Shown here in pieces: positions 1 through 55,172 of a stretch of DNA of 64,000 nt; position 1 is the stretch's first letter; the number at the start of each line of letters is the position of its first letter. Below the pieces are notes generated by a model. It saw nothing but the letters and a program-made list of their open reading frames with translations. It was not told the origin of the DNA and did no database searches. The translations under genes were made by a program, and so were the position numbers. Source of the DNA: Azolla caroliniana (taxonomy: Eukaryota > Plantae > Polypodiophyta); contig JBHGNT010000006.1 of NCBI GenBank assembly GCA_043228905.1, forward strand, positions 18,662,001-18,726,000, given 5' to 3'.

Positions 1-7
1 AAAAGAA

Positions 8-30846: not shown

Positions 30847-32622
30847 ATGGAGTGGGTGGAGTTCCCCGGCAAGGGAAGAAACGCGTCGGCACTCCTCCGG
30901 GAGTTTGAAGAACGCTTTGCGTGCCTTTCGGCGCTTGACCGAACCATTCTGGATACGAGCCGGGTCCTACTGTTCGTCAAGTCGGTGGACGAGCGGGACC
31001 GGGATCAAGTCGGCTCCTTGCTGGAAACCGAAGACGGGCTGACGACCGGTTGGGCTGCGGTTAAGAGAGTTTGTGGCCGTTTCGACAAACGGCGAGAATG
31101 GGCTGACAACGGCGCGGCTGGTGCGGGCTCTATCACAGCAAGGAGGCTTGAACCGGCACCGCAAGGGCAAAGGGAAGAAACCCGGGAATGGCTCGAAACC
31201 GGTCCGGCTTCGACCGGCATGGTCAGTGGCTCGTCCGGAGGAGCAGCGCTGGAGGAGTTGATGCGGGCGATAAAGGATCTCCAGATCGCCCAGACTCGAA
31301 GGGAAGGCGGCGAACCGGCTCGTGACCGACGGCCGATGGCAGGGAACAGGTGCATGTGGTGCGATGAGGTCGGCCACATCCGGAAGGACTGCGGCGATTT
31401 CGCAGAAGTGTTGAGGAACCGGGTGGTGTACCTGTGGGAAGGCCGGGTGCACGCCGGCGACACCAGAAGGGCCCTAAACCAAAACGACAGGCGAGGAGGA
31501 ATGAAGAGACTGATGGAAGAGGCAGCGGCCCGACACGTGGAGGCCATCCACTACTCGGCGTCGGCCGGCATTCGGGTCGGGGGCAGCGAGGCCCGAAAGG
31601 AGGGCAAAGACGGATTCTGGTCGGCAATGCTGGAAGGTCTTGCCGGCGCACGACTAAGGAAAGATGAAATGGACCGCGCTGAGAGACGGGTCCGGGAAAT
31701 AACCGGGTGGAGCGATCCGGTCGAGGAGAAGACGGGCTTCGTAGAAGCCGCTTGCCGGAACTACGAGGCTCTGGTAGAAGACAAACGAGTGGGGAAAACC
31801 GGAGCGGCCGGGCCCCCACAACGGTACGAGACCCGATTAGGGCAACGACGGAACGATGCCGGTGGGTCTAGCTCGCAAGATAACCCCAGGAAGGGCGGAT
31901 ACCGACTGGGGACGGAAATAGAAAGGACTACGGACCTACGAAAGGTCCTAGAGGAACGGATCCTCGACAGCAAGGTGGAGCTGTCATTGCGAGAGGTGCT
32001 AGGGATTGCCAAGAAGGAGTTCCACGACTCCATTGTGGGCCTGGTGAAACGGAAGAGGCTGTCGACGGAGACGGAACCGGAAAGACCGGTGGAGGTGCGG
32101 ACGACGCACATCGACGACATGGCGCTGGAAGGTGAGTGGGCGGAGAGCCACTATTCGAGGCCGCACTAGGCCCGAGCGACCACGGAGACCCCGGTAAAGA
32201 TCAGAGATGTTCAGGAACCAGTGGTGGCATTGGTGGACCACGGTTCGGAAATAAACCTGATGTCCATGGACTTCTATAAGAAGGGAAAGTGGCCGATCAA
32301 CACCAAGCACGGGTGGAAGATACGGGCGGCGACGCGCGCCACTAAGGAACTGCACGGGGCTTGCCCGAACGTGCGAGTCAAGATCGGCAACGTCGAGATT
32401 GACCATCACTTCTTCGTACAGGAGACGTCCTCGCATCCGGTCATATTAGGGGAACCATACATCACGGCGGCGAGAATGGAGACCAAGGTGCTAGACAACG
32501 GTTCGGCCTACGCGAGGGTCAAAAGCCAGGACGGGCGCCATTCGGTCCAATTTCTAACGGTGCGACCGAACCACGAGCGAAACTGCGAATCCCTCGGTGG
32601 CGAGAACCGGGAGGATTTTTAG
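30847..32622 (+). pseudogene. Element F gag-protease
   Basis: ORFs 30847-32169 and 32221-32622 are in the same frame, split by one TAG at a position that is Trp in element D. Confidence 0.85.
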
Positions 32623-32678
32623 AGAGGACTGCCAAGGCGTGGGGCCAAGACAGTCCGGACACTCGGGAAAGACCCCAC
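32613..32678 (+). other. Putative -1 ribosomal frameshift signal (G GAU UUU UAG plus pseudoknot), element F
   Basis: Heptamer GGATTTT, 6-nt spacer, stem GGACTG/CAGTCC, loop GTGGGG complementary to downstream CCCCAC; same architecture at 55098-55160. Confidence 0.75.
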
Positions 32679-35468: not shown

Positions 35469-38400
35469 TGTCGTGAAGATCCGTCACTACGCGCGGATCG
35501 TGAGGCGGAACCGCCGGGGTTCTGGACCAGAAGGATTTAGAGTCGATACAAGCTTTGGCGAGAAAGTACTTAAGATAGATTGGGAAAGAGAGAAGTTGAG
35601 ATTACACGATCAATTTGATAACGAATTTCTTCCTCTTAATTTTCATAAAAAAAAACCGTGTTTTTTCTCCTCCCCCTTCCCTCTTTTATAGATGCTCTCA
35701 TGCATATGATGCATGTGAGGGTACAAGACATGCATAAATTGCATGTTTGCCATTTGGCGCTTATGTATTACATGTGGTGCATGATAACCATGTCACTCAT
35801 TTTAGTTCTCATGTATGAGAATTTACATGTAAAAGTACAAAAATATAATTTCAATTAAATAGCATGGCTTAATGGTAAGCCATTTGACTCCTAACTTGGA
35901 GGTGCAAGGTTCGAATCCTTACTTGCCCTCCTTGTATATGTAAATATGTATATATATTTATATATTTATTTATCTAGTCGCCGTACGATTCATGTTGGCT
36001 AGTGTGACCTTCTCGAACTTCTTCGCTAGCTCTTCAATGATGTCGTCATCAATCTTCTTTTCTTCCATATTACTTTGTCTCGGCGGCTCAGCTACTTTCG
36101 GCGATCTTGCTTTCTCCGTGGTAGTCGGTCCCGTCAAGTCGGTGTCATCAACCCATTGGCGACGCTTGTCGAGCCTATTGCATGCCCGCTTCACCGCGAT
36201 CTAGTCCGCTACGAGCCCATTTGCTTGGGTATCATCTTCGAGAAGAGTCCCCAACTCCCGTCTATCCTTTATGTCCACGGCCTTCAAGAAGTACAAAGTC
36301 TTGTCCTCTTCAAGCAACACTTGGTCCGTATTGGGGAGACGACTAAACATCTGGTCGAATTCGTCGTACACCCTCGAGACGCTCATCTTCTTATTCTTCT
36401 TCTCTATCCACTTCATCAGGGCATGTCGAGTCATCCTCGTTGAGTCTTCATCCTCGTTGTGCCTCGGACACGTCCCTTTGATTCATCTCCCTCTTATATG
36501 CATCAAGGAACTTCGTAACGTTCCTTCGATCGAATTGGCCCTCGAGCTCTACGACACGATCGACAGCCTTCTCCACGCTCGCGTCGTTGTCCCGAGATCT
36601 CATCATTTGCTGGACGATTAGCATCATCCTTTCGAGCTCTCCTGCTTGGTTGCTTGAGGACGCCATCTCCAAGTATTAATCTCGACTTGATCTTTTCTAC
36701 CGCCTCTTTCACGTCGGGTTCACCACTTGATTATGTCGTGAAGATCCGTCACTACGCGCGGATCGTGAGGCGGAACCGCCGGGGTTCTGGACCAGAAGGA
36801 TTTAGAGTCGATACAAGCTTTGGCGAGAAAGTACTTAAGATAGATTGGGAAAGAGAGAAGTTGAGATTACACGATCAATTTGATAACGAATTTCTTCCTC
36901 TTAATTTTCATAAAAAAAAACCGTGTTTTTTCTCCTCCCCCTTCCCTCTTTTATAGATGCTCTCATGCATATGATGCATGTGAGGGTACAAGACATGCAT
37001 AAATTGCATGTTTGCCATTTGGCGCTTATGTATTACATGTGGTGCATGATAACCATGTCACTCATTTTAGTTCTCATGTATGAGAATTTACATGTAAAAG
37101 TACAAAAATATAATTTCAATTAAATAGCATGGCTTAATGGTAAGCCATTTGACTCCTAACTTGGAGGTGCAAGGTTCGAATCCTTACTTGCCCTCCTTGT
37201 ATATGTAAATATGTATATATATTTATATATTTATTTATCTAGTCGCCGTACGATTCATGTTGGCTAGTGTGACCTTCTCGAACTTCTTCGCTAGCTCTTC
37301 AATGATGTCGTCATCAATCTTCTTTTCTTCCATATTACTTTGTCTCGGCGGCTCAGCTACTTTCGGCGATCTTGCTTTCTCCGTGGTAGTCGGTCCCGTC
37401 AAGTCGGTGTCATCAACCCATTGGCGACGCTTGTCGAGCCTATTGCATGCCCGCTTCACCGCGATCTAGTCCGCTACGAGCCCATTTGCTTGGGTATCAT
37501 CTTCGAGAAGAGTCCCCAACTCCCGTCTATCCTTTATGTCCACGGCCTTCAAGAAGTACAAAGTCTTGTCCTCTTCAAGCAACACTTGGTCCGTATTGGG
37601 GAGACGACTAAACATCTGGTCGAATTCGTCGTACACCCTCGAGACGCTCATCTTCTTATTCTTCTTCTCTATCCACTTCATCAGGGCATGTCGAGTCATC
37701 CTCGTTGAGTCTTCATCCTCGTTGTGCCTCGGACACGTCCCTTTGATTCATCTCCCTCTTATATGCATCAAGGAACTTCGTAACGTTCCTTCGATCGAAT
37801 TGGCCCTCGAGCTCTACGACACGATCGACAGCCTTCTCCACGCTCGCGTCGTTGTCCCGAGATCTCATCATTTGCTGGACGATTAGCATCATCCTTTCGA
37901 GCTCTCCTGCTTGGTTGCTTGAGGACGCCATCTCCAAGTATTAATCTCTACTTGATCTTTTCTACCGCCTCTTTCACGTCGGGTTCACCACTTGATTATG
38001 TCGTGAAGATCCGTCACTACGCGCGGATCGTGAGGCGGAACCGCCGGGGTTCTGGACCAGAAGGATTTAGAGTCGATACAAGCTTTGGCGAGAAAGTACT
38101 TAAGATAGATTGGGAAAGAGAGAAGTTGAGATTACACGATCAATTTGATAACGAATTTCTTCCTCTTAATTTTCATAAAAAAAAACCGTGTTTTTTCTCC
38201 TCCCCCTTCCCTCTTTTATAGATGCTCTCATGCATATGATGCATGTGAGGGTACAAGACATGCATAAATTGCATGTTTGCCATTTGGCGCTTATGTATTA
38301 CATGTGGTGCATGATAACCATGTCACTCATTTTAGTTCTCATGTATGAGAATTTACATGTAAAAGTACAAAAATATAATTTCAATTAAATAGCATGGCTT

Positions 38401-39037
38401 AATGGTAAGCTATTTGACTCCTAACTTGGAGGTGCAAGGTTCGAATCCTTACTTGCCCTCCTTGTATATGTAAATATGTATATATATTTATATATTTATT
38501 TATCTAGTCGCCGGATGCCGGTTCGCCGGATGCCGTCGCCGGATACCAGTGCCACCGCCGGATGTCGTCGGTTACCGGTGCCGGATGCCGTCGGATCACC
38601 GTCGCCGTATTGCCGTCGGATGCCGCCGGATACCGGTGCCGCCGCCGGTCCGGTTTTGGTTGGCCAAAACCCTTTACGAGTAGCTAGGCCACCTCCACTC
38701 TTAGTTCAAGTTACCTTGAACTCTCTATGCTCCACACATAGAGATAAAGATAATATCTTTTGCTCCACCTTATATATGATGAGAGCTGTATTTGTCGTGC
38801 CTATGTGGGATATCTCACAATTTTCTCCTTTCCTTTTACAAACTTTATACCCTCATATCTTGACATTTAGTTGTCCGTTTCTCGTGTAATAAAGTGCATT
38901 CGAAACCTCCATAATTTTGTACTTAGATATTAAATCTATTTAAAATGTTATCTTCACAATTATTGTACTACGTGATTCATACTCGATTTCGTACGTTTTA
39001 TAGGATTTTCACACTATTGCTGAAAATCTTCACGACA
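35469..39037 (-). mobile_element. Element C: deleted, tandemly duplicated derivative of family D with one full and two half LTRs
   Basis: Full LTR 37999-39037; 1265-bp units starting at 35469 and 36734, each half LTR + gag fragment + PBS; 4-bp TSD GCGC/ACGC. Confidence 0.92.
35861..35928 (+). ncRNA. tRNA-like A/B-box module within LTR C (further copies at 37126-37193 and 38391-38458)
   Basis: TGGCTTAATGGTAAGCC (A box, D-stem GGCTT/AAGCC), loop CTCCTAA, AAGG-TTCGAAT-CCTT (consensus B box GGTTCGAATCC). Confidence 0.75.
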
Positions 39038-40395
39038 ACGCGGACACGGACCGATCGTCAAGGCGTTAGTTCGGGCATGCGGGGGGCAAGTCGGGAACTG
39101 GCTGTGGCTGCTGCCTTACGGGTTGTGGGCTGACCGAACTACGCATAGTTCGGTAACCGGATTCATGCCGGCAGAGCTCATGTTTGGGCAGAAGCCGGTC
39201 ATGCCGATGGAACGTACGATCTCCTCGTGGGCAACTGTGGACTGGAGAGACGAGATGAGCCGGGAGGAACTGCTGGCGGCGCGTATACGACAGCTCCAAC
39301 GAAGACCGGAGGACGTGGAGCAGGCTGCGGAAAAGCTTCGGGAAGCAAGGATGAGGAACAAAGCCCGGTTCGACCGAACGCACCAGCTCCGACCGAAGAA
39401 GATTGAGGAAGGCGACTGGGTGCTAGTCTACGACAGCAACCTCGACAACCAGCACCGAGCGACATGGAAGTTCGCAAGAAGGTGGTTCGGGCCTTACGTG
39501 GTACAAAGCGCCAATGACAACGGGACGTACCATCTGGCGGAACTCGACGGCACGAGAGTGGCGATACCGGTAGCTGGGAAGCGGATCAAAGCGTTCAAGA
39601 AGCGTCACGACGACGAGCCGGATCCGGATAACCTGGACCGGGACGACGAACGATCTGAAACCGAGGAAGGACCGACGGGCGGGGAATGAAGGCTGAACCG
39701 GTTTTCTCCGTCCCAACTCAATTTGGCGCATGCCGGTGGATGCGCGGTTAGGTGGGGGCGGATGTCGTGAAGAAAACCGTCCACAAGCGGAATCGGTGCG
39801 CCAGAGCATAGGAACCGGCTCTTCACGCACGTACGCCTTGTGTCGAACATAGGAGAGAATTAGGGACATGGGAGATCCTAGGTAGGTAGATTCGGTAGGT
39901 AGAAAGTTAATAGGAAACGGCTCCCTTCTTGCCTATAAAAGGAGGGAGACGAGGAGGAAGGGATCGCGAAGAGTCAAGGACGAAGTGCTGTCGGGCTGTC
40001 GGTCGAAGGCTTCTCTCTCTTCCATACTCCATAGCTTCTTTCTGTGCAGGTTTCGGGAGGCTCGCGCTGCTCTAAGGAATGCTTGAGTGCTTCCGGCAGC
40101 ACCTCCAACCTACACCTTTCTTTCTGTGCGTTTACGAACAGGCATCGACATCTGTTCGCCGGCCTGTTCGATTGTAACCGACTTCGTGTTCTTGTTGTTG
40201 TTGTCTTTGTTAATACATACATACATTCGTGTCTCTCTGTGTCGCTGTCCCACTCGCGTCTTTGTGTCGAAGGGCCGTGTCCCTGTGAATCCACGCTCGC
40301 ACATAGTGGGTCTCTTCTCCTTTCTCTCTTGCTCTTCGGTACAGGACCCCCGAAGTCCCGCCTCATTCCACGCATCCGCGAGGAATACCTCGACA

Positions 40396-41067
40396 ACGTC
40401 ATTAGCTCCTTCGACATAACTCCAGTAGCCATGCCCGAGCAGGTACTGGTGCATCTTGTAGGACCAAGACGCGTAGTTGGTTTTGTCGAGCTTCTCTGTT
40501 GGAAGCGAGCTCGCCATGCCTCTATCCATCGTTCTTCTTGTTCTTCTTTGTCAAGCTGTGTCGGTTGCAGAGAGGTTCTCAACCCTTGCGCTCTGATACC
40601 ATGTAAAAAGTAACGTGCGGAAGTAAGTGTGAAGACCGAACAGGAGGAAGAAAACTCAGGTTCAATGGAGAGCTTGAGCTTACGCAGTATACGCGGGAGA
40701 GAGAGAGAGAGTGAGAGAGAGAGAGAGAGAAAACACACGAACTATATTCAACAAGAACAATCCAATCTCTATTCACCACACTCTATACATATGTGTGTTC
40801 AATGAACACTTTTATACAAGTCCTAGAAGGACTGACCGAAGTACTGACAGTACTTCAATACTCATTAAGAGCTCCTACACTAACTCCCAAATATATTCCT
40901 CACGGAATATCTTTCCTAACGGCCTCCCGGTTTACGCACCAATCCGGCCCTACCTACACACCGGTCTGCGTATCGGTTTACGCATTCAGCCTAACCAATC
41001 GGTCCCAAACGATCCGGTCCTCGGCTTCTTCAGCCGATCTGGCCGATGTTGAGCTTGTCTCTCAACA
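40396..41067 (-). mobile_element. 5' end of a second Ty1/copia element Y (LTR 40602-41067, PBS, gag start)
   Basis: PBS TGGTATCAGAGC at 40590-40601; MDRGMASSLPTEKLDKTNYASW gag; LTR related to that of copia X. Confidence 0.85.
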
Positions 41068-41438
41068 GGAACTTATCGACTATGCGAGTTGGATGGAACA
41101 ATGCTACGAGTGCCTATAGCCGGGAAACGGGTGAAGATTTTCAAGAAGCGGACTGATGAAGAACCCTATGTGATTCTAGACAAGACCGACCGACCAGAAG
41201 GAGCAATCGGACGAAGATCGCGGTGATGGAGAAAGCGAAGAAAGTGGATTAGAACTCATAGTCGACGTAAGGGGAGAATTGGAGGAAGCTTTGGATGAAG
41301 GTGAATAGCAAGCATCGAGGACTTCGGCACATACCGGAGGATGTGCGGGTTAGGAGGGGGCGAGTGTCGTAGTGTAATTCTCACTCTACGTGAAAAATTA
41401 CATTTTTGGTCTCTCCGGATAGGACATGGAGTACCCGG

Positions 41439-44400
41439 TGTCGTGAAGATTTTCGTCCATAGGCGGAAAACCGAGCGAAGCAAGCAAACCCGCGATGTGC
41501 AACGTTGCACATCACCATGTTGTATTTCTATTTATCGATAGTGATAAGTATGGTGCTAGAAATGCACCTTAGGATTTGTAAAGTGTAGAGGTGATGTGCT
41601 TTTGCGCGCACATCCACGTGAGAGAGAGAGATAGGTACATAGTAGTTCGTGTAGAGGTGGGAGTTAAGACCCATCCTTCCCACCTCCCCTAAAATCAAGG
41701 GAAATATCCCCATTGATTGAAAGGGGATATTTTGTAGCACCCCTTTATGTAACGGTCTTCCCTCCTTGTGCTATAAAGGGAGAGGAAGAGCACCATTGTG
41801 GGGGTTGCCTTATTTTGAGTGTGAGTGAGGTATACCATTTCGTTTTAGGGTTAGGGTTTCTTTTCTTCTTCGTCGGATTAGGGTTTCGGGTTTATCATAG
41901 TCGTTTGGTGCGGCCTACGCGGCCGCCATTTTGTAATCGGTTTCGGTTCTAATATATCTTGTTGAGCATTTGGCCTCCATCTTCCTCTTGTTCATTCTCC
42001 CTCTTCTTGTGCTAAGCTCCATTCCGAAGTCCTATTCCTTCTCCCCTTCTCCTTAGTCCGAGACCCCCGTGGTTCCGCCCTTCTCCACGCACGCGCGTAA
42101 CAACGCGACATCTTTGGTGAACCCGACGTGAAGGGCGGCAAGGGAGAAAGAGATGGAGGAAGGCTTCGACTTCGAGGAGATGATGACAAAGATCTTGACG
42201 GACGCCGGACGGAAGAGGGCGAGGCGAGAGGCGGCTCAACAAGCGGTCGAAAGGGTGGTCCGTCTAGTCGGCCGGTTCGATGGGAAGGAGGTCCCAAAAT
42301 TTTTGAGAGCCTACGATGCGGAAATGACGGGGATGGGCGTGGACGAAGCGACGAGGCTAGAGTTCTTTCGTCGAGCGGCGGCCGCATCAAAGTACGAGGA
42401 GGTCAAGGAGCTCCAAGAAGCTCACGAATCGTGGGAGTCCTTTGAAGGGGCTCTAATGGAGGCATACGGGTGCGCGGAATCGGAGGTAAGAGGTCGGCGA
42501 GAGTTCGATCGGTGGATGGCGTCGGCGAGGCGCCATCGGAGCGCAATAGAGGCATTCCGAGAGTTCGAGCGTCGTTTCTCTCAACTCTCGGAGTGGGAAC
42601 GAAGATCGGTGGGGGCGGACAAAGTCCTCCTATTTTTGGAGACGGTCCATCATGAGGAGAGGATGGACATCACGTTCGAGCTTCAAGACGATTATGGGGC
42701 GCATGGTCTCACCGAGGAGTGGCCCGAAGTGGAATGGGTGTGTCGGCAACATGAGGCGAGGCGGTCGGCCACAACACGGCCCGCGAGCGGGGGAGAAGAG
42801 AGAGCGACGACCAACTACGCCATGCCGCCGGACGAGAGCTCATCGCGAACCGGTTTGGAGGGGCTCGACCTACAAGCGCTAATACGGGAGGCGTGCGGGC
42901 TCGTAATGGCGAAAATCGAAGCCGAAGAATGGCTTATTGCGGGGTCGGGCCCGAGCGGATCGGAGGACGCGGAGGAAGGAGCTTCCTCACACATGGAGGA
43001 CGGGGCCTATGCGGAGGCCGAAAGAGAATGGTACATCGGTACCACGGGAGAGGGTGCGGAGCGAGCCGCCCTCTCGACATGGGGGGAAAGAACGACCGAG
43101 GACGAGGTCGGGGACGGTGAGGCGGCGATCGCCGATTCGAGCGGACATGGCGGATTCGGGACATGGTGGCCCGAATCATCGAGTACGGAGGAGACAAGCG
43201 GCGGTACCGCAACCTTCCACGCACCGGTTCAAGAGACCCCGGCGGCCGGCCCGAGCGCCCGCGTGAGACCGAGGGAAAAGCATGGTGGCGGCGGCAAGGC
43301 GGGCAACCGAGACAACGGTAAGGAGACCGCGGAAGAGGCGGCCGCAAGCATAACCGATGCTTGCATATACGGAGGCGGGGTAGCCACGGACAACGACGTC
43401 CGAGCGGAGGTGGCTACGGACATTACATCGACGAGCGGCGGTCCCGCGACCTTACACGCGTCATTCCGGGAGATCACGGCGGCCGGCCCGAGTGCCCGCG
43501 TAAGACCTATGGTGAAAGGCGGTGGCTGTGGCAAGGCGGGCGACCACGGCGTCGACACGAGAGAAGGTGCGGAGCAAGCGACCGTCTCATCTCGGGGAAA
43601 AAGAACGGCCATGGACGAGGCCGATATCTACGGAGCGATGGACGCCACTTCGAGAGTGGGCGGAAGTTTCGGGACGCGGTTGCCCGAAACGTTCTACGAG
43701 GATTTCGCGAGCATACTCGAGGCTTGCGAAATGGAGGAGGAAGAGGAGACGAGCGTCGGTGTCGCGACCTTCCACACACCGGCCCTAGAGGCTTCGGCGG
43801 TCGGCCCAAGTGCCGGCACGAGACCTGGAGCTACGGACGGTGGCGGCGGCAAGGCGGACAACCGAGATAAGGACGAGACCGGCGAAGAAGAGGCGGCGGC
43901 AAGCATACTCGATGCTTGCGAAACCGAAGACGGGGTAGCCACGGACGACGATGTCCGAATGGAGGTGGCTACGGACGAGAGGAGTGGTGGTGTCGCGACC
44001 TTCCACACACCGGTCCTAGAGACTCCGGCACCCGGCCCGAGAGCCGGCGAGAGGCCTAGAGTGACGGACGGTGGCGGCGGCAAGGCGTGCAACCGAAACG
44101 ACGACGACATGGGAGAGGGTGCGGAGCGAGCAACCCTCTCGTCTTGCGGCGAATGGACGGCCAAGGATGAGGCCGGTGACTACAAAGCGGAGAGCGCCAC
44201 TTCGAAAGTGGGCGGAAGATTCGGGGCACGGCGGCCCAAAACATCGAGCGGAGAGGAGGCGAGCGGTGGTGCCGCGACCTTCCACACACCGGCCCTAGAG
44301 GCTTCGGCGGTCGGCCCGAGTGCCGGCACGAGACCTAGAACGACGGGCGGTGGCGGCGGCAAGGCGGGCAAACAAAATGATGCGGAGAACGGCGAAGAAG

Positions 44401-47044
44401 AGGTGGTGGCAAGCATACTAGAGGCTTACGGAATCGGAGATGGGGGAGCCGCGGACAACGACGTCCGAACGAAAGCGGCTACGGAGACAACAAGCGGCGG
44501 TGCCGGGTCCTTACCCACACCAATCCTAGAGGCTCCAATGGCTGGCCCAAGTGCCGGCATGAGGCTTAGTACGACGGGAGGTGACGGCGGCAAGGCGGGC
44601 AACGGAATCGAGAAGGAAGATTGGAGCGGACGGAGGCAAGACCCCTTGACGTCGGGGCCGGAGACTTCGGCGGTTGTGCTCGAATGCCAACGTGAGACCG
44701 GAGAGATGGGCGGTGACCGTGAGGAGGTGAGGCCCGGAGAGAACGCATACGAAGACGAGTATGCGGGGCCCGGAATGGGCGTATACGGTGGGTCCGACGG
44801 AGAGGACCGGAGCGGAAACGAGGAGAGAGTCGGGAACCGACCCGACCGGAATACGGCACGGAAGAAGAAGAGAGTAAGGGCCGGCGAACCGGGCCCAAAC
44901 CGAAGGAAGCCGGCGAGACCGATTGGCCGGTTACGGTTACGGTTACGATGGGAGCCGGTAAGCGCGAGATGGAGGCTAGCCGGGCACGACGACCATGGTT
45001 CGGGGGAAAAACGGAAACAAACGAGACCCTCCATACCCACTCTAGAGACTACGGCGGTTGCGGATCAACATAAGACCGGAGAAACGGCGGGTGGCGGCGA
45101 GGAGTCGGAGACCGGAGCGTACGAGGTTACCGGAACGGATATCCGGTACGAGATGGTGGACGGGTGGGTCCAAGACGGCGAGCCCGTGTCGGAACGGGCT
45201 ACGGCGACAAAGGAGGAGAAGACCGACACGGAGGTCGGGTCTACGGCGGAAGAGCGAGACGAGATGCATGCAATACGGCCGATGGAGGGCCAAGACACAA
45301 GCATGCCTACGAAGGAGCCACATCGAGCAACCGAAGATGACGGTCGGATCACGCCTTCGAGAGGCGAATACGAGGAGGAAGGCGGCGACGACGAGACCCG
45401 GCACGATGCTAGGGAAGATTGGTGGGAAGAGGTGGCCTACGGAGAGGCTAAGACCGGCGGCCACGAAGATAAGACCCGAGAGGGATCCTCCACACCGGCT
45501 ATAGAGACTCCGGCGATCGGCGCGAGTGCCGACGTGAGACCAAGAGTGGCGGACGGTGGCGGCGAGGGGACGAAGGCCACAACGGATGAAGGCACCGAGA
45601 GAGGCATACGGGAGGTCGCGGTGAACGAAGATGTATGCGCCCAAAGGAACGAACACGACATCACGAAGGATGTGTGCGGTCGAGCGGGCCAAGGGGGCCA
45701 AGAGGGTGTTCCTCCGAGCGAAACGGAGGTCGGGGAAGAAGGGTACCTTTCCGAAAGGGTACGCGAAGAGGAGCGGAATGCGAAACGTGCAATACGGCCG
45801 CATGAGGGCCAAGCAACGAGCACGGGAACGATGGTATGCTCTACGGCGAGAGAGCACGGCAAGCAAGGGGAAGACGAAAAATGCGTGATGGGGTCATCGA
45901 AGGACCGAAGCACGAGCACGCATTCGGAGGACGACACCGACGTACGGGGAAAGCCTACGGAAGGCAAGCGCGGAGCGAGAAGAGTCGGCACGACGAGGTG
46001 CGCGGCACAAAAAAGGCGGATCCGGAGGATATGCGAGGCGGACAAAGGGTCGGCAACGGCGTTCGGGAGGACCGAACGGGGAGGAAAGCGCGGGCATCGG
46101 ATATGGCAGTCCGAGTGTAGTCGGTGGTTCGAGGAAACACGGTGGATGTGGCGGATCGGATGGAGCCGACGGTTCGAGACCATTCGGCGGAGATGGTGGG
46201 CCGGAAGGCGACGGTGGTTCGTGTGGACGGGGTGGACTTGCTCGAAGTGGAAGACGAAGCCGGGCAAGCCCACGAGGTTGTCAAGGGCTCGGTTGGCCGC
46301 CTTGGCCGAAAATCTCGCGTTTTGTTCCCCTTTTGGCACATACCGGTGGATGTGCGGTTAGGTGGGGGCGGATGTCGTGAAGATTTTCGTCCATAGGCGG
46401 AAAACCGAGCGAAGCAAGCAAACCCGCGATGTGCAACGTTGCACATCACCATGTTGTATTTCTATTTATCGATAGTGATAAGTATGGTGCTAGAAATGCA
46501 CCTTAGGATTTGTAAAGTGTAGAGGTGATGTGCTTTTGCGCGCACATCCACGTGAGAGAGAGAGATAGGTACATAGTAGTTCGTGTAGAGGTGGGAGTTA
46601 AGACCCATCCTTCCCACCTCCCCTAAAATCAAGGGAAATATCCCCATTGATTGAAAGGGGATATTTTGTAGCACCCCTTTATGTAACGGTCTTCCCTCCT
46701 TGTGCTATAAAGGGAGAGGAAGAGCACCATTGTGGGGGTTGCCTTATTTTGAGTGTGAGTGAGGTATACCATTTCGTTTTAGGGTTAGGGTTTCTTTTCT
46801 TCTTCGTCGGATTAGGGTTTCGGGTTTATCATAGTCGTTTGGTGCGGCCTACGCGGCCGCCATTTTGTAATCGGTTTCGGTTCTAATATATCTTGTTGAG
46901 CATTTGGCCTCCATCTTCCTCTTGTTCATTCTCCCTCTTCTTGTGCTAAGCTCCATTCCGAAGTCCTATTCCTTCTCCCCTTCTCCTTAGTCCGAGACCC
47001 CCGTGGTTCCGCCATTCTCCACGCACGCGCGTAACAACGCGACA
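41439..47044 (+). mobile_element. Element E: complete, young, pol-less LTR retroelement
   Basis: Near-identical 672-bp LTRs (41439-42110, 46373-47044); perfect 4-bp TSD CCGG; PBS TGGTGAACCCGACGTGAA at 42115-42132; PPT at ~46360-46372. Confidence 0.95.
42153..46361 (+). CDS. 1402-aa Gag-N / acidic repeat / Trp-Arg-tail protein of element E
   Basis: Single intact ORF filling the internal region; first ~200 aa align by eye with D gag (GRFDGKEVPKFLRAYDAEM vs GQLDGRNVTKFLDAYKREM); no zinc knuckle, PR, RT or INT motifs. Confidence 0.85.
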   Translation: MEEGFDFEEMMTKILTDAGRKRARREAAQQAVERVVRLVGRFDGKEVPKFLRAYDAEMTGMGVDEATRLEFFRRAAAASKYEEVKELQEAHESWESFEGALMEAYGCAESEVRGRREFDRWMASARRHRSAIEAFREFERRFSQLSEWERRSVGADKVLLFLETVHHEERMDITFELQDDYGAHGLTEEWPEVEWVCRQHEARRSATTRPASGGEERATTNYAMPPDESSSRTGLEGLDLQALIREACGLVMAKIEAEEWLIAGSGPSGSEDAEEGASSHMEDGAYAEAEREWYIGTTGEGAERAALSTWGERTTEDEVGDGEAAIADSSGHGGFGTWWPESSSTEETSGGTATFHAPVQETPAAGPSARVRPREKHGGGGKAGNRDNGKETAEEAAASITDACIYGGGVATDNDVRAEVATDITSTSGGPATLHASFREITAAGPSARVRPMVKGGGCGKAGDHGVDTREGAEQATVSSRGKRTAMDEADIYGAMDATSRVGGSFGTRLPETFYEDFASILEACEMEEEEETSVGVATFHTPALEASAVGPSAGTRPGATDGGGGKADNRDKDETGEEEAAASILDACETEDGVATDDDVRMEVATDERSGGVATFHTPVLETPAPGPRAGERPRVTDGGGGKACNRNDDDMGEGAERATLSSCGEWTAKDEAGDYKAESATSKVGGRFGARRPKTSSGEEASGGAATFHTPALEASAVGPSAGTRPRTTGGGGGKAGKQNDAENGEEEVVASILEAYGIGDGGAADNDVRTKAATETTSGGAGSLPTPILEAPMAGPSAGMRLSTTGGDGGKAGNGIEKEDWSGRRQDPLTSGPETSAVVLECQRETGEMGGDREEVRPGENAYEDEYAGPGMGVYGGSDGEDRSGNEERVGNRPDRNTARKKKRVRAGEPGPNRRKPARPIGRLRLRLRWEPVSARWRLAGHDDHGSGEKRKQTRPSIPTLETTAVADQHKTGETAGGGEESETGAYEVTGTDIRYEMVDGWVQDGEPVSERATATKEEKTDTEVGSTAEERDEMHAIRPMEGQDTSMPTKEPHRATEDDGRITPSRGEYEEEGGDDETRHDAREDWWEEVAYGEAKTGGHEDKTREGSSTPAIETPAIGASADVRPRVADGGGEGTKATTDEGTERGIREVAVNEDVCAQRNEHDITKDVCGRAGQGGQEGVPPSETEVGEEGYLSERVREEERNAKRAIRPHEGQATSTGTMVCSTAREHGKQGEDEKCVMGSSKDRSTSTHSEDDTDVRGKPTEGKRGARRVGTTRCAAQKRRIRRICEADKGSATAFGRTERGGKRGHRIWQSECSRWFEETRWMWRIGWSRRFETIRRRWWAGRRRWFVWTGWTCSKWKTKPGKPTRLSRARLAALAENLAFCSPFGTYRWMCG

Positions 47045-47313
47045 CCGGCGAGAACCGGAAGAAGGAACCGGTAAGGACCGAAACCGGTAAGGAGACCCGG
47101 CAAGAGCCGGATGAAGAAGGCTGGTGAGAGTCGGTGAGAAACGGACGAAGAGATCGGTAAAAAGGTCCCGGTAAGAACCGAACAAAGAAAACTAGCAAGC
47201 ACCGGATGAATCAGAACCGGAAAGAGTCGGATGAAGAAGGCCGGTGAGAGTCTCTCATCGGATGAAGAGACATATTTGTAAATAGAAGAAAGTATAAAAA
47301 TATACATATTACA

Positions 47314-47380
47314 TGCATAGGGCAAGATTCCAACCTTGCATCTCCATGTTAATAATGTTAAGCCTTATCATTATACTAGC
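47314..47380 (-). ncRNA. Degenerate tRNA-like module within LTR G
   Basis: Minus strand: TAGTATAATGATAAGG...GAGATGCAAGGTTGGAATCTTGCCC followed by TTTTT. Confidence 0.5.
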
Positions 47381-47788
47381 GTATTATGAATTTTAAAGTT
47401 ATACTAAACTTTATCCCATGTAAAATTTCTAGACATGCAAGGTACAAAATGTTATTCATGCATAGACACTCGAGTTAAAAGAAAATATGAGATAGAAAGC
47501 TAATCATGCACACAACTAAAAATAGGAAAAGCACGATGCTTGCATGTGATAAACTTAGACTCTTCCAACACTATATAAGGAAGAGAGAAAGATGTATAGA
47601 GGTTGTTGATTATTTTACAAGGGTTGATTAATATAATATAATCGTGGGATTCACGAGTTTTTCATATCTTTCTTTCTTACAATATATTTCACATTCTTAA
47701 TTGCCTTAGAATTTTCTTTCCTCCTAGTCCAAAACCCCAGTGGTTCCCACCCGACTCACGCAATGATCCGGAGCCGAAAGGCACGACA

Positions 47789-50291
47789 GCGTAACTCTCC
47801 GGATCACGCACTTCCGCTACACGGGTCATGTACAGTTAGTGATGCACCATGTACTCATTGTATCCGAACCGCACAACAGGGTTCTTCTGGCGGGTAGATC
47901 GGCGTAATTGCTCATTAGTCGATGTTGAGGCTTTCTTAGCCGACGCGGACTTCACTCCCGGAGACCCTTCATCACTTCCCTCGGAGTCGGACTCGCGTCG
48001 ATCCCACTCATTCCTATCGGTGCCGTAATCCGACACCTTCTTCTTCCCTTTTTCGTTGCGCGTAAGCCGTCTCCTTGGTTTCCTGCGCGGGGAATGCACG
48101 GCCGAGTCTCCACTACTCGCCGGCTCTTCCTTGGACTGGTCAAACCGACTCAATCGTCCATTCGGTCCACTTAATTGAGTTTTCCTTTTGTCCACGCTGT
48201 TTTGCTTTGATGTATATCTGCAACTGAATTCGTGCCGAATTCCCATCTATTGCAGATACCTGTTGAATTGACCGGAAAAGTACTCTTTTCCACCATCCGA
48301 CCGTAGGCACTTGATCTTTCTTCCTATTTCCCTTTCGATGAAACTCTTGAGGGTTTGGAAACACTCGAATATTTCACTCTTCTTCTCAATGAGGTAGATC
48401 CACGTGTGCCGCGTATAGTCGTCGATGAAGGAGACGAAATATCGACTCCCGCCAAGACTCACGTTTTGTGCCGGCCCCCATACATCGGAATCTATCAAGT
48501 CGAGCATGTTCTGGTTCCAGTTACGCTCGTTTGGGAAAGGAAGTCAGTGTTGCTTGCCTAGTTGGCAGGCTTCACAAATTTGTGCCTTCCGGCCACTAAA
48601 TTTGGGCAATCTGAACACCACATGTTTCGATTACAGGTCCTGAAGCCGTTGATAGTTGACGTGGCCTATCCGCTTATGCCATAAGTCGATATCCTACTCG
48701 ATTTTTTGTCTTTCGCAAACATTGCGGTGCCGCCGTCACTAGAGTCGAGGATAAACATCCTCCCATTTCTACGCCCTTGCGCAATAACTCGGCCTTCTTC
48801 CTCGATGAAGCACCCAAGGTGTGTAAACCGCACCTGCATCCCTTGGTCAACGATCTGACCTACTGACACCAGGTTCTTTGTGATAGTCGGAATGTGTAAC
48901 ACGTTCATGAGTTTCCCTTTCTGCTCAACATGGCTCAAGGGAACCTCACTGACATTCGCGATCGGATGCGGAGTGTTGTCTCATGTTGCAACTACTCCCG
49001 GTTGCATTGTTTTTTCAAGGTACGAGAACCACTCTTTGTGGCACGTCATGTGATTTGACGCGCCGGAGTCGACGTACCACACCTCATCCGACGTTGGGGT
49101 GATCTTCTTCATCGAGTTTTCTTTGTGTCTCCTCACAAAGACTGACCCTTTTCCGAATCCTTCGGCGTAGTGCGATCGCTGCCGATCTCCTTTGTCGATC
49201 TGTCTAGAACCTGATCCGGATCAATGCGCTTTTTCCAACACTCGCTCTCCCTGTAGCCTTTCTTGCCATAGTACCAGCATTCCGCGGCGGATTTCCCTTG
49301 TCGGTTCTCATCGCCGCCTTGACTACCCCTGCTTGTGGAGGGTCCAAAACTGCTGTCAGCATGTTCTCTGTGCCTTCGGTCCTGCTCCTGCCGGCCGCTA
49401 CCATTGCGAGCCAACCCGCCTCATCCACCATGCCCACGGGGCCGATCCACCTTCGTGTATATCATCCGGTTGTCAGTGGGTGCACTTGTTGACACACCGA
49501 CGTGGTTCTCCTCTACAAGGAGAATCGACTGTAACTAGGAAAATGACGGCGTATTCTCCTTTGTACACACAGCAGTTCGGAATGCTCTGAACTTCGACGC
49601 CAGTCCCCCGAGATAGATCTGCACCATCTCGCCTTCCTCGCAATAGAGGCTAAGGAGTCGCACATCTCTTTGATCTTCGAGGTGTAATCAACCACCAACA
49701 AGTCGCGTTGTCATAAGTTGCCCAGCTCTTGTCGGAGTTGAAGCTTCCTGGCTGTGGTGCTTGCGGCAAAAATATTTTTCAAATTTCCCCAAGCATCCTT
49801 CGGCGTTTTCACATCCTGAATATAGCTCAGAAGTTGTTCGCCCACACAAGACGCGAAGCAGTAGAGAGCTCTGCTCGCCGACTATTCCCAAGCTGGGAAG
49901 TCTTTGTGTGTCGAATCGGGTGTTGTGTCGCTTGCTCCATCGACATAGCTCCAATAACCGTGCCCGAGCAGGTACTGGTGCATCTTGTAAGACCAAGATG
50001 TGTAGTTGGTTCTGTCGAGCTTCTCTGTTGGAAGCGAGCTACCCATGCCTCTATCCATTTTGTTTTTCTGGTTCTTTTTGAAGGTTAGGTTTTCTTCTTT
50101 GAGCTAAAGGCGGTTGCAGAGGTTCCTGGGAAGTCTTTGTGTGTCGAATCGGGTGTTGTGTCGCTTGCTCCATCGACATAGCTCCAATAACCGTGCCCGA
50201 GCAGGTACTGGTGCATCTTGTAAGACCAAGATGTGTAGTTGGTTCTGTCGAGCTTCTCTGTTGGAAGCGAGCTACCCATGCCTCTATCCAT
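47789..50291 (-). pseudogene. Copia X gag-protease-integrase remnants
   Basis: EKLDRTNYTSWSYKM (gag), WYVDSGASNH (protease), LIDSDVWGP and IKCLRSDGGKEY (integrase); many stops; 233-bp tandem duplication at ~49894-50359. Confidence 0.85.
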
Positions 50292-52379
50292 TTTGTTTTT
50301 CTGGTTCTTTTTGAAGGTTAGGTTTTCTTCTTTGAGCTAAAGGCGGTTGCAGAGGTTCTCAACCCTCGCGCTCTGATACCATGAAAAGAATAGCGTGCAG
50401 AAGCAAATAGAAAACCAAACACAGAAACACAGGTTTAATGGAGAGCTTGAATATACATGGTATGTGGGAGAGACAGAGAGAGAATGCACACAGAACTCTA
50501 TTCAAAATAATACTCAATCTGCACATAGGATGTCCTCAGTGAGCAGTTTTATACAAGCCCTGACTATCGGGCTCACACAAGTACTGACAGTACTTGAATG
50601 CTCATAAATGAGCCTACTACACTAACTCCCAAAATTATTCCTTATGAGGAATACCATACTAACAGCCTTCCGGTTTACGCACCGATACGGCCACGTTATG
50701 CGTACTATTTTATGCACCCAGTCTACACACTGGGTTACGCACCGTATTACGCAGTCAATGTTGAGCTTGTCACTCAACACATGTGCTCGTGTGACCATGC
50801 GAAAACATCCTTATATTCTCGGAGCAGTTCTGTCATTGACGTCTTCTCACCTAAGGTTAGATCCCTAGCAATTGAGAGTAGTCGTGGCATTGCCATAGTT
50901 CCGATGTTGACTTCTTCTAATGCAGAAGCGGGGACTCGACACGAGATTAGCATTTCTTTTTCGAACGCTTCTCGTGCCCTACTTAACTCCATTATCGACT
51001 CAGGATCACGCTCGTACTACTCTTCTTGAAGTGTACTAGGTGGGGCGTACTCCGCAACGGTATCCATTACATCAATTTCGAATAATGGCACGATCCGTGG
51101 GTTTTCATGGAGGTATGCCTCAAGCTCAGTATCATCCAATCCTTCCAGCATATTAATATATTCGATGTATAATGGTGTTATGCCCTTGGTTGGGGCCACC
51201 GTTTGCCTGCGTAGGTACATGAACTTTGTTGCGGCCTCGTCGGAAGCTGATATAGTTATGTTGCCAATTTTGCTTGATGTTGGCAGAGCGTAACCATGGT
51301 CTGCCCAGCAAAATTGGATACGCTTCAGGAGCGTCTAATGCAAGCACTACCGCAAAGATGTCAAAGTACATGGCCTCCGACGACAATTCCTAATTTCCGA
51401 ATTAACCTGAGGGGCTTGATGGAACGAGTGTCCACCATACGGAGCCAGAAAGGACATGCTTCCCAATTTGTAATGCCCATCGACGATGCATCCTCGAGTA
51501 CACGTACTTGTACTAATGATGTTTACGCCGGACCCCCCATCGACGATGCATCCCAGTATTTCTGGACCCTTCAGTACGAATTTAATGGCCGGATTGTGGT
51601 AATCTACTACTGTTGGGCCGATACTAGACTCCGCGAAATTGGCTGAGACATCTAATCTGGTTGTTCCTCGTATACGAGTCCCGACCACCTGTTGGAATCG
51701 TGGAACCAAGAGGAGTAGCTTATCCGTGGTCAACGTTATTTCACAGTCTGCCAATGCTTGCCATATGGGGTCTGGTGATAATGCGTTATCGCCCGTTTGC
51801 AAGTTTGCGTTGTCGTGAAGATTTTCGGCAATAGTGTGAAAATCCCATAAAACGTACAAAATCGAGTATGAATCACGTAATACAATAATTGTGAAGATAA
51901 CATTTTTAATATCTAAGTACAAAATGATGGAGGTTTCGAATGCACTTTATTAGACGAGAAATAGACAACTAAATGTCAAGATATGAGGGTATAAAGTTTG
52001 TGAAAAGAAAAGAGAAAATTGTGAGATATCCCACATAGGCACGACAAATACGGCTCTCATCATATATAAGGTGGAGCAAAAGATATTATCTTTGTGTCTA
52101 TGTGTGGAGCATAGAGAGTTCAAGGTAACTTGAACTTAGAGTGGAGGTGGCTAGCTACTCAAAAAAGGTTTTGGCCAACCAAAACCGGACCAGCGATGGA
52201 GCCGGTGATCCGACGGCAGCATGCGGCACCGGTATCCGGCGTCGGCGTCGGCATCCGACGACGGCATCGGTATCCGGCACCGGTATTCGGCGACGACATC
52301 CGACGACGGTATCCGGCGAACCGGCGACTAGATAAAATAAATATATAAAAATATATACATATTTACATATACAAGGAGA

Positions 52380-52446
52380 GGGCAAGTATAGATTCGAACC
52401 TTGCACCTCCAAGTTAGGAGTCAAATGGCTTACCATTAAGCCATGG
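52380..52446 (-). ncRNA. tRNA-like A/B-box module within LTR D (second copy at 59266-59332)
   Basis: Minus strand: TGGCTTAATGGTAAGCCATTTGACTCCTAACTTGGAGGTGCAAGGTTCGAATC, then TTTTT ~30 nt downstream. Confidence 0.7.
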
Positions 52447-52852
52447 TATTGAGTTTAATTATATTTCTATCATTGTACTTTTACATGTAAATTCTCATCC
52501 ATGAGAGCTAAAATGAGTGACATGGTTAGCATGCACCACATGTAATACTTAAGCACCAAATGGCAAACATGCAATTTATGCATGTCTTGTACCCTCACAT
52601 GCATCATATGCATGAGAGCATCTATAAAAGAGGGAAGGGGGAGGAGAAAAACACGGTTTTTTTTTTATGAAAATTAAGAAGAAGAAATTCGTTATCAAAT
52701 CAATCGTGTAATCTCAACTTCTCTCTTTCCCAATCTATCTTAAGTACTTTCTCGCCAAAGCTTGTATCGACTCTAAATCCTTCTGGTCCAGAACCCCGAC
52801 GGTTCTGCCTCACGATCCGCGCGTAGTGACGGATCTTCACGACATAATAAAG

Positions 52853-52870
52853 TGGTGAACCCGACGTGAA
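52853..52870 (+). other. Primer binding site complementary to tRNA-Trp 3' end
   Basis: TGGTGAACCCGACGTGAA is the reverse complement of TTCACGTCGGGTTCACCA, the plant cytosolic tRNA-Trp(CCA) 3' end as I recall it; same PBS in C and E. Confidence 0.8.
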
Positions 52871-52905
52871 AGAGGCGGTAGGAAGGATCAAGTCGAGATT
52901 AATAC

Positions 52906-55107
52906 TTGGAGATGCCGTCCTCAAGCAACCAAGCAGGAGAGCTCGAAAGGATGATGCTAATCGTCGAGCAAATGATGAGATCTCGGGACAACGACGCGAG
53001 CGTGGAGAAGGCTGTCGATCGTGTCGTAGAGCTCGAGGGCCAACTCGATGGAAGGAACGTTACGAAGTTCCTTGATGCATATAAGAGGGAGATGAATCAA
53101 AGGGACGTGTCCGAGGCACGTCAAATCGCAAGCTTCAAGAGAGTTGTCGCCAACAACATCCAAAGACGCGTCATCGAGCTTCAAGAAGGAAAGACAACAT
53201 GGTCCGAGTTCGAGAAAACGATACTAGCGGAGTTCGTGACTGAAGACTCAACGAGGATGACTTGACATGCCCTGATGAAGTGGATAGAGAAGAAGAATAA
53301 GAAGATGAGCGTCTCGAGGGTGTATGACGAATTCGACCAGATGTTTAGTCGTCTCCCCAATACGGACCAAGTGTTGCTTGAAGAGGACAAGACTTTCTAC
53401 TTCTTGAAGGCCGTGGACATAAAGGATAGACGGGAGTTGGGGACTCTTCTCGAAGATGATACCCAAGCAAATGGGCTCGTAGCGGACTAGATCGCGGTGA
53501 AGCGGGCATGCAATAGGCTTGACAAGCGTCGCCAATGGGTTGATGACACCGACTTGATGGGACCGACTACCACGGAGAAAGCAAGATCGCCGAAAGTAGC
53601 TGAGCCGCCGAGACAAAGTAACATGGAAGAAAAGAAGATTGATGACGACATCATTGAAGAGCTAGCGAAGAAGTTCGAGAAGGTCACGCTAGCCAACATG
53701 AATCGTCGGGGCCCTAAAGGAAAAGAACCCTTTAGATGCGTGTGGTGCGATAGCATGGACCACATGAGAAGGGATTGTGCGAGCCTTCGAGAGGCGATTC
53801 GACAAAATATCGTATACATAGAGGACAACATGATCTGCTCAAGCGAGACTAGAAGACCCCTACGGGTGAATTTCGGAAGAGGAGGAATGAAGAGATCTAT
53901 GGAGGATGCCGATGCGACTCATGTGGATGCGATGCACTATGCTGCGTCGGCCGGAATAAGAGTCGGGAAAGACAAGACTGAAGCTGCTAGAGCGGGAACA
54001 AAGTTTTGGACTTCCGTTCTCGAATATGAGAAGAAGGGAAAAATCACATCGAACGAGGTAGAGCTTGCGGACCGAAGCGTGCAAAGCATAACCGGGTGGT
54101 CGGATCCGGTGGACGACAACACCATACTTGCAGAGGTGATGTGCGACAACCACGAGGTGTTCGTCGAAGAAAAGAGAAAGAGAATAGAAAAGCAAGGGCC
54201 ATAAAAAAGACATGAAACAAGGAACGTGAAAAAGAAGGACGATGTGGAGACGAGTCGACCTTTACAAACGGAGGAACGAGAATCAAGCCGAAAAGGGGAG
54301 CCGAGCATACGAGTTGAAGAAACGGTTCGGCCCGTGAAGGTTGGTGTCGAAGACCCCGCTCGGAGGACAAGGACCATACCTACCTATAAGCTAAGGTCGG
54401 ACATAGAGTAGACGACGGACGTAAAGAAGATTCTCGAAGAACGAGTTCTTGATAGCCATGTAACTTTGTCCTTGAGGGAATTGCTTGGCATTACGAAGGA
54501 GTTCCATGACACGATCGTGGACCTTGTAAAGAGAAAGAGACAACAATCGGACGAGGAAGAAGAGAAGCCGCAGAAAGAAAAAACGAATGCCATAACGATG
54601 GCAAGAGACGAAATCGATGAAGATATGGTGGACAGCCACTACACTTGACCTCATTGGGCACGAGCGACAACGGAGACGCCGGTGAAGATCGGGGAGAAGA
54701 AAGAGACTGTCGTAGCCTTGATCGACCACGGCTCGGAGATCAACCTCATGTCAACCGACTTCTATAAAAAGGGAAGATGGCCAATTAATACAAACCACGG
54801 ATGGAAGATTCGCGCGGCAACAAAGTCTACGGAGGACTTGTACGGAGCTTGTCCCAATGTCAAAATCACGATCGGGGATGTGGAGATGGATCAACACTTT
54901 TTCGTACAAGAATCGGCATCGCATCCTGTCATCCTAGGGCAACCTTATATCACATCATCTCGGATGGAGACCAAAGTGTTCGATAATGGAGCAGCCTTCG
55001 CACGAATAAAGAGTCTTGACAACCAAAGATCGGTCCAATTCCTAACAGTGCGAGCCCATCATGAAAGGAATAGAGATAGTCTCGGAGGCGAATCCTCGGA
55101 TTTTTAG
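52906..55107 (+). pseudogene. Element D gag-protease
   Basis: In-frame ORF pieces split by stops; CVWCDSMDHMRRDC knuckle; LIDHGSEIN protease. Confidence 0.88.
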
Positions 55108-55160
55108 AGCGGACTATTGAAGCATGGGGCACAAATAGTCCGAGCAATCACAAGACCCCA
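55098..55160 (+). other. Putative -1 ribosomal frameshift signal, element D
   Basis: GGATTTT-TAG, stem GGACTATT/AATAGTCC, loop TGGGG pairs with CCCCA; -1 frame open into pol. Confidence 0.75.
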
Positions 55161-55172
55161 CAAGAAAGAAGA

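What the first reader, a model, noticed from the sequence alone, without database searches (positions are those of the whole stretch)
41435..47048. Gypsy group with 4-bp target-site duplications always centred on CG
Seen: the 4 bases flanking every TGTCG...CGACA element read NCGN: A CCGT (1747), B CCGT (30765), C GCGC/ACGC (35465/39038), F ACGT (40396), E CCGG/CCGG (41435/47045), G GCGT (47789), D GCGT/ACGT (51807/59733). That is 7 of 7 independent insertions. Removing C plus 4 bp restores the host frame GKVERGHGP, confirming TSD length. Known: plant LTR elements usually make 5-bp TSDs with weak preference (copia X here: CATGT). Inference: the integrase, which has no chromodomain, selects CpG or methyl-CpG sites, steering insertions into CG-rich transposons and explaining the dense nesting.
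Basis: partly seen in the sequence, partly recalled or inferred. Interest (0 to 1): 0.8.

Follow-up and report, generated by a model that had tools for sequence, protein, structure and literature searches.

The report
Fern retrotransposons that insert at CG
These jumping genes, likely from a fern, almost always insert at a CG pair and copy four host bases around it, a habit already published for the moss Phygy lineage, to which they likely belong; their integrase likely reads the CG letters directly, and a need for methylation is not shown.

Summary
All seven flanks read NCGN at the stated coordinates, but only C, D and E are two-sided, and only E is a perfect duplication (CCGG/CCGG). An independent test confirms the rule: of 66 unique LTR-host junctions in metagenome contigs, 52 have a central CG and 12 have TG or CA, against 3.9% background CG. 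The phenomenon is known. Neumann et al. 2019 list Phygy, a non-chromovirus Ty3/gypsy lineage of Physcomitrium, with 4-bp NCGN duplications in 100% of 186 elements, a tRNA-Trp primer site and 7.7-10 kb length. These elements match those features and have P. patens gag-protease homologues. No tree with Phygy references could be built. The host is likely a fern, and Phygy is already reported in ferns. The likely mechanism is direct CG reading by a 4-bp-stagger intasome that kinks the central step. Methyl-CpG reading is untested, and steering into CG-rich transposons is weakly supported at best.

The parts
41439..47044 (+). Element E: complete non-autonomous Phygy-like LTR element (5606 bp), inserted in G's 3' LTR
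   Evidence: LTRs 41439-42110 and 46373-47044 differ by 1 substitution in 672; no pol domain
41435..41438 (+). E left target-site copy CCGG
47045..47048 (+). E right target-site copy CCGG
42115..42131 (+). E primer-binding site, 4 nt after the 5' LTR; complementary to a tRNA 3' end (identity as tRNA-Trp recalled)
   Evidence: sequence; its complement is the abundant CCA-ending plant small RNA annotated as miR894
42132..46361 (+). E ORF, 1409 codons stop to stop: Gag N-terminus (about 200 aa) followed by low-complexity repeats
   Evidence: residues 46-222 match the family's Gag at 35%; no Pfam hit
46336..46372 (+). Conserved 6-bp hairpin and G-rich polypurine tract before E's 3' LTR
51811..59732 (+). 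Element D: full-length (7922 bp) gag-PR-RT-RH-INT element with broken frames; LTRs 51811-52844 and 58666-59732; flanks GCGT/ACGT
35469..39037 (-). Element C: internally deleted D-family copy with a 1265-bp tandem unit, inserted in F's integrase; flanks GCGC/ACGC
30765..40395 (+). Element F: autonomous-type element missing its 5' end (gag, pol 32403-35468 and 39042-39689, 3' LTR 39763-40395); right flank ACGT lies in copia Z
28275..30764 (+). Element B: non-autonomous element missing its 5' end (left boundary approximate), 3' LTR 30059-30764; right flank CCGT lies in F's gag
41068..47788 (+). Element G: integrase tail 41068-41364 and 3' LTR (41365-41438 plus 47049-47788, split by E); right flank GCGT lies in copia X
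   Evidence: empty sites of the copia family join at 47789
1..1746 (+). Element A: 3' part of a likely non-autonomous element cut by the window edge, 3' LTR 1254-1746; right flank CCGT
27547..50779 (-). Copia-type element X, outermost host of the nest, 5-bp duplication CATGT
   Evidence: LTRs 27547-27944 and 50382-50779, 7% diverged; sequence
40396..41067 (-). Copia-type element Z remnant (5' LTR about 40602-41067 and start of the interior), inserted in G's integrase

Best explanation
These are Ty3/gypsy LTR retrotransposons, likely of the Phygy lineage and likely in a fern, that leave 4-bp target duplications centred on CG; the choice is likely made by the integrase itself, which would cut with a 4-base stagger, kink the target at the central step and read the CG letters, with methylation likely not required. 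Shown: the 4-bp length, the near-strict symmetric V-C-G-B site (most often ACGT), gypsy domain order, and no chromodomain or extra RNase H detected. Inferred: the autonomous-type families (D, F, G) supply integrase to the non-autonomous ones (A, B, E, C), so all share one site rule. TG/CA centres and the C and D mismatches are likely later deamination of methylated C. The pile-up is likely a local nest (X > G > Z > F > B; C in F; E in G's LTR) whose left halves were removed by one deletion near 28275. A glutamate at the position of PFV Ala188 / HIV Ser119 is a candidate specificity residue (untested).
For: Site rule: of 66 unique 5' junctions, CG 52, CA 7, TG 5, AG 2, TA 0; background CG 3.9%. 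T at the first position 2 of 66, A at the last 1 of 66, the same symmetric exclusions Serrao 2015 report for all 4-bp retroviral intasomes, which also favour a central pyrimidine-purine step. 3' junctions: 8 of 10 non-PBS rows NCGN. In four public runs, 27-42 contigs per run follow G's LTR end through the next four bases before diverging at random, against 68-90 that diverge at the LTR end itself (85% likeness, so mismatches are tolerated). Later decay: solo LTR L022 has ACGG on one side and ATGG on the other; 12 of 64 (19%) TG/CA is close to the 20-22% CpG-to-TpG/CpA difference between related LTR heads. Lineage: Phygy has 4-bp NCGN in 100% of 186 elements, tRNA-Trp primer 81%, 7656-9968 bp, no extra domain. 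D is 7922 bp. Two P. patens proteins are colinear homologues of gag, protease and the start of pol at 26-55% identity. Glu in 54 of 55 homologues at the aligned position. Host: the best named hits of a window kinase are Adiantum (66%) and Ceratopteris.
Against: No tree with Phygy references could be made (Neumann's additional files 1 and 3 were too large to read), and the two P. patens proteins carry no Phygy label. The test that TG/CA-flanked copies are older gave no difference (7 against 32 copies). Two of four two-ended metagenome loci are not clean duplications (L049 ACGT/ACGG; L051 ACGC/CCGT, whose two ends may belong to different elements), and one weak row has CGGT. All 66 junctions come from one series of related assemblies and mainly from the D, E and A families. 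Nothing here excludes that targets are methylated at insertion. The model is of low confidence around the integrase active site.
Confidence: 0.78

Rival explanations
1. The integrase prefers or needs methylated CpG, which would give a chromodomain-free route into silenced, transposon-rich DNA.
For: No chromodomain. Junction flanks have more CpG (4.0%) than the window's left background (1.7%). At least 13 of 62 flanks match repeats of the window. TG/CA, where T carries the same 5-methyl group, are almost the only alternatives (12 of 14). Phygy domains were reported enriched at predicted centromeres of a liverwort.
Against: TG/CA is explained by later decay (L022; rate match). CGCG targeting occurs in the Drosophila ZAM group, where CpG methylation is nearly absent (recalled). 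Flank CpG o/e is 0.85, not strongly depleted. No methylation data were examined.
Confidence: 0.12
2. Only generic flexibility of a pyrimidine-purine step is selected, as in foamy virus and MLV, with no base-specific CG reading.
For: 64 of 66 centres are pyrimidine-purine steps; 4-bp intasomes favour such steps.
Against: TA is 0 of 66 and CG 52 of 66, although TG and CA are each about 7% of flank dinucleotides and CG 3.9%. Retroviral enrichment averages only 63% above the 22% background.
Confidence: 0.04
3. The elements form an unnamed sister lineage of Phygy, or are related to TatI, and share the NCGN habit by descent or convergence.
For: Neumann described Phygy from P. patens only; TatI also has 4-bp duplications and a tRNA-Trp primer; identity to the P. 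patens proteins is modest.
Against: TatI carries an extra archaeal-type RNase H in 100% of elements, and none is detected here. NCGN is named for Phygy alone. Phygy is reported from ferns and a liverwort.
Confidence: 0.05
4. Artefact: the LTR ends were misplaced and NCG is part of the element.
For: Four of the seven cases are one-sided, and the LTR termini themselves contain CG.
Against: 5' LTRs end at CGACA followed by the spacer and primer site, and 3' LTRs start at TGTCG after the purine tract. The outer two positions vary freely. Empty-site contigs show that G's GCGT belongs to the copia host.
Confidence: 0.01

Closest known systems
Phygy lineage (non-chromovirus Ty3/gypsy; Neumann et al. 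2019, PMC6317226; passages and additional file 5 read)
   Same: 4-bp NCGN duplication; tRNA-type primer site (Trp by recall); 7.9-kb full-length element; no chromodomain, extra RNase H or extra ORF seen; homologous gag and protease in P. patens
   Different: Host is likely a fern. Several short non-autonomous families occur, with Gag plus a long repeat ORF. NCGN was documented for the moss only in what I read.
Drosophila ZAM-group errantiviruses (CGCG target; Nefedova and Kim 2017, PMC5408687; passages read)
   Same: 4-bp palindromic CG-centred target of a Ty3/gypsy element
   Different: Insect lineage with env (recalled); consensus CGCG rather than VCGB; not tested for relatedness here
Prototype foamy virus and MLV intasomes (Serrao et al. 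2015, PMC4422553; abstract and sections 6 and 14 read)
   Same: 4-bp stagger; central pyrimidine-purine step; T disfavoured at the first and A at the last position; homologous integrase core
   Different: The retroviral preference is weak and not CG-specific. The alpha-2 contact residue is small and neutral in retroviruses but Glu here.
TatI and Selgy (Selaginella non-chromoviruses; Neumann 2019 additional file 5)
   Same: 4-bp duplications; TatI uses tRNA-Trp
   Different: No NCGN preference reported; TatI has an extra RNase H; Selgy uses tRNA-Ala and averages 5 kb

Membership tests
Ty3/gypsy LTR retrotransposon | Domain order gag-PR-RT-RH-INT, TG...CA LTRs, primer site and purine tract | tested here: met
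   RT, RH, then integrase in F and D; best PDB sequence hit is Ty3; LTRs, primer site and tract
Phygy | Falls in the Phygy clade in RT/RH/INT trees (the formal definition) | not testable with these tools
   Reference sequences too large to read. Indirect: colinear P. patens homologues A9U4T6 and A9U6H8
Phygy | 4-bp duplication with NCGN | tested here: met
   7 of 7 in the window; 52 of 66, plus 12 TG/CA, in independent junctions
Phygy | Primer site for tRNA-Trp | tested here: inconclusive
   Same 17-nt site in C, D and E, complementary to a conserved CCA-ending plant small RNA. Assignment to Trp is recalled; two scans for the tRNA gene found nothing
Phygy | Length 7.7-10 kb, coding region filling the interior, no extra ORF | tested here: met
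   D is 7922 bp with gag-pol from primer site to tract; E (5.6 kb) and C are non-autonomous derivatives
Phygy | No chromodomain and no extra RNase H | tested here: met
   No Pfam chromodomain or second RNase H at E <= 0.1 in F's and D's integrase tails, P0004 or P0007. Integrases end in an SH3-like domain and mostly a short acidic tail, predicted disordered in P0007
Chromovirus (Tcn1, Galadriel and others) | Chromodomain at the integrase C-terminus | tested here: not met
TatI | Extra archaeal-type RNase H | tested here: not met
   none detected in P0004, P0007 or the window ORFs
Selgy | About 5 kb, tRNA-Ala primer | tested here: not met
   D is 7.9 kb; primer site recalled as Trp, not Ala
Methyl-CpG-reading integrase (hypothetical) | Preference for 5mCpG over CpG | not testable with these tools
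   no methylation data or assay available

The most novel reading that the evidence does not exclude
The Phygy integrase is a methyl-CpG reader, kept from mosses to ferns: it finds silenced DNA through the methyl mark at the insertion site itself, with no chromodomain, and the invariant glutamate at the PFV Ala188 position is part of the reading head.
Probability: 0.12. Interest if true: 0.75.

Novelty: new member of a known kind. Interest (0 to 1): 0.27.

Why it matters
The NCGN rule was a one-line remark about a moss lineage. This shows it is near-strict in what is likely a fern, which suggests a site rule kept since the moss-fern split, if the elements are Phygy. It gives a very high-copy plant system with a dinucleotide-specific integrase and a candidate specificity residue, useful for asking how intasomes read target bases and whether methylation matters. 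It also gives a practical annotation marker (TGTCG...CGACA ends with NCGN). The core phenomenon is published, so interest is modest.

Tried and rejected
No whole genome is held for the window, so no genome-wide logo could be made from the assembly. Viral contigs: no relatives of the integrase; 11 pattern hits in large viral contigs were taken as chance and not analysed. The first read-laying gave few junction letters: after 47044, ACG then T in one contig and ATGT in another; after 47788, CAAT in one, which is not NCGN. Rows dropped before the count of 66: of 125 motif hits, 33 failed a downstream-only LTR rule (one of them, L092, is LTR-like and has ACGT), 2 were too short, 20 followed the purine tract and 4 were duplicates. 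The age test was inconclusive. The protein atlas gave no result. The fold of P0007 and the Foldseek search confirmed RT and a disordered tail but were too uncertain at the integrase active site to place the glutamate. Two scans for the primer tRNA gene found nothing. Literature: 'Phygy' or 'NCGN' (only Neumann holds both), 'Phygy' + 'fern' (3 papers), 'Phygy' + 'retrotransposon' (18), fern genomes with LTR terms (listing only, apart from PMC6786969 passages) and methylated-CpG targeting with six terms (0 papers). I saw no report of NCGN in ferns or of a methyl-CpG-reading plant integrase in these searches; subscription journals are not covered. Rejected: 5-bp duplication, LTR-boundary artefact, chromovirus, TatI, Selgy.

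Full report
Observation. E (41439-47044; LTRs differ at 1 of 672 positions) has a perfect CCGG/CCGG duplication that does not extend to 5 bp. C (GCGC/ACGC) and D (GCGT/ACGT) each have one mismatch, an A directly after the terminal CGACA. This is what deamination of a methylated C in CHG context would give (inference). For C the host frame fixes the original as GCGC: F reads GKVER to 35468 and GHGP from 39042, like D's GKIERGHGP. A, B, F and G are one-sided. The product of local CpG frequencies at the seven sites is 3e-9.

Independent test. Of 125 hits, 90 passed a rule based only on downstream bases. Twenty of these followed the purine tract and 4 were duplicates, leaving 66 junctions. Centres: CG 52, CA 7, TG 5, AG 2, TA 0. 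Background CG is 3.9% (P = 2e-60). Of the 14 non-CG centres, 12 are TG or CA (P = 7e-9). The site is symmetric: first base A38 C14 G12 T2, last base T39 G17 C9 A1; ACGT is the commonest (17). At 3' ends, 8 of 10 non-PBS rows are NCGN, one is ATGG and one weak overlapping row is CGGT (L098's ACGT is shared with the 5' set). Of four two-ended loci, L080 is ACGG/ACGG, L022 is ACGG/ATGG, and L049 and L051 are not clean. All 66 come from one series of related assemblies. For the B/G family, contigs of four public runs (three studies, three coded organisms) break at G's LTR end (68-90 per run) or four bases later (27-42 per run). A further 11-18 per run in a separate group carry the empty copia site joined at 47789, so GCGT is host DNA.

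Anatomy. F and D encode RT, RNase H and integrase in gypsy order. C, D and E share a 17-nt primer site 4-9 nt after the 5' LTR. Its complement is a conserved CCA-ending plant small RNA (PMC5846777 and PMC6852985, passages), which I recall as the 3' end of tRNA-Trp. All six forward 3' LTRs follow a conserved hairpin and G-rich tract. No chromodomain or second RNase H was found at E <= 0.1. Most of the 55 aligned homologues end in an SH3-like domain and an acidic tail, predicted disordered in P0007. E has only a Gag N-terminus followed by repeats; B is similar, and the part of A in the window resembles them. C is an internally deleted D-family copy with a tandem unit. The cluster reads as a nest: copia X (27547-50779, CATGT) holds G; G's integrase holds copia Z; Z holds F; F's gag holds B; C is in F and E is in G's LTR. 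All left halves are missing, and X's sequence just left of G's site is absent from the window. One deletion near 28275 would explain this (inference). The host is likely a fern: the best named hits of a window kinase are Adiantum and Ceratopteris. Pol relatives include Riccia sorocarpa (63%) and Adiantum nelumboides (55%).

Mechanism. Serrao et al. 2015 (PMC4422553; abstract and sections 6 and 14) show that intasomes with a 4-bp stagger favour a flexible central pyrimidine-purine step, disfavour T at the first and A at the last position, and contact target bases through a small residue in helix alpha-2 (PFV Ala188, HIV Ser119). The site here obeys those exclusions but is far stricter and lacks TA, so base-specific CG reading is likely added. 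The HMMER alignment puts a glutamate at the Ala188 position, and it is present in 54 of 55 homologues. That it confers the specificity is a hypothesis. TG/CA centres are likely later decay: L022 has CG on one side only, and 19% is close to the 20-22% CpG turnover between related LTR heads. Against this, TG/CA-flanked copies were not detectably older (7 against 32 copies). Methylation at the time of insertion could not be tested. The Drosophila ZAM group targets CGCG (PMC5408687, passages) with almost no CpG methylation (recalled), so none is needed in principle. On steering: CpG density is 1.7% in the left background, 4.0% in junction flanks and 6.5-12% in these elements' interiors, so a mild bias is expected. 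But only 5 of 62 flanks match Phygy-like DNA of the window and 49 match nothing in it (biased towards unique DNA), and copia elements nest in the same place.

What is known. Neumann et al. [quoted passage not shown] They tabulate 186 elements, 4 bp 100% (NCGN), tRNA-Trp 81%, 7656-9968 bp, no extra domain. PMC6911290 (passages) confirms 4-bp duplications for Phygy and reports Phygy nested in Tcn1. PMC13477047 (passage) states that ferns contain Phygy and Tcn1; PMC12885004 (passages) finds Phygy domains in a liverwort. Two P. patens proteins are colinear homologues of gag, protease and the start of pol. The formal phylogenetic test was not possible, but no tested feature failed. PMC8282616, PMC13469084, PMC11899658, PMC7466625 and PMC6786969 were read as passages and added nothing on target sites. 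My searches showed no report of NCGN in ferns or of a methyl-CpG-reading plant integrase.

Verdict. A real and strongly confirmed feature, but a new member of a known kind: Phygy-like elements with the published NCGN duplication. Confidence in the best explanation is 0.78. The novel reading, methyl-CpG targeting without a chromodomain, has probability about 0.12. Interest 0.27.

Noticed in passing
window 1217-1236, 30022-30041, 39726-39745, 41328-41347, 46336-46355, 58629-58648 (approximate): A 6-bp hairpin with an 8-nt loop lies just before the purine tract in all six forward 3' LTRs and in most of 20 metagenome copies. It is fully paired in the six window copies, with two compensated pairs (21 of 500 shuffles reach this). 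Likely a cis signal for reverse transcription or packaging.
   Followed up: partly
window 42132-46361: E's single 1409-codon ORF is a Gag N-terminus plus about 1200 residues of acidic, Gly/Thr-rich repeats, open throughout in a very young element. A and B carry related repeats. It resembles TR-GAG-type non-autonomous elements (recalled).
   Followed up: partly
window 35469-39037 (-): C has one full LTR and two partial LTRs with a 1265-bp unit duplicated at 99.9% identity, similar to tandem LTR structures (PMC11899658, passages); an assembly error was not excluded.
   Followed up: partly
window 18684-19553 (+): Intronless CDPK-like kinase gene without EF hands; close named relatives only in ferns.
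   Followed up: partly
window 49893-50358: Exact 233-bp tandem duplication inside copia X.
   Followed up: no
L098 about 270-320 on the minus strand; L051 near 1108: Elements abutting each other: in L098 one LTR end and another LTR start share a single ACGT; in L051 two LTR tails face each other three bases apart.
   Followed up: no
window 4978-9326 and 8523-8703: A 213-bp inverted pair (81%) about 3.9 kb apart and a long palindrome, possibly a DNA transposon.
   Followed up: no
window 10344-10880 (+) and 27116-27700 (-): Remnants of other retroelements: an RT fragment and a Tf2-type SH3 integrase tail.
   Followed up: no
window 1-1253, 28275-47044, 52845-58665: The interiors of these elements are CpG-enriched (o/e 1.14-1.29) while the left background is depleted (0.50), so the elements are rich in their own target dinucleotide.
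   Followed up: partly
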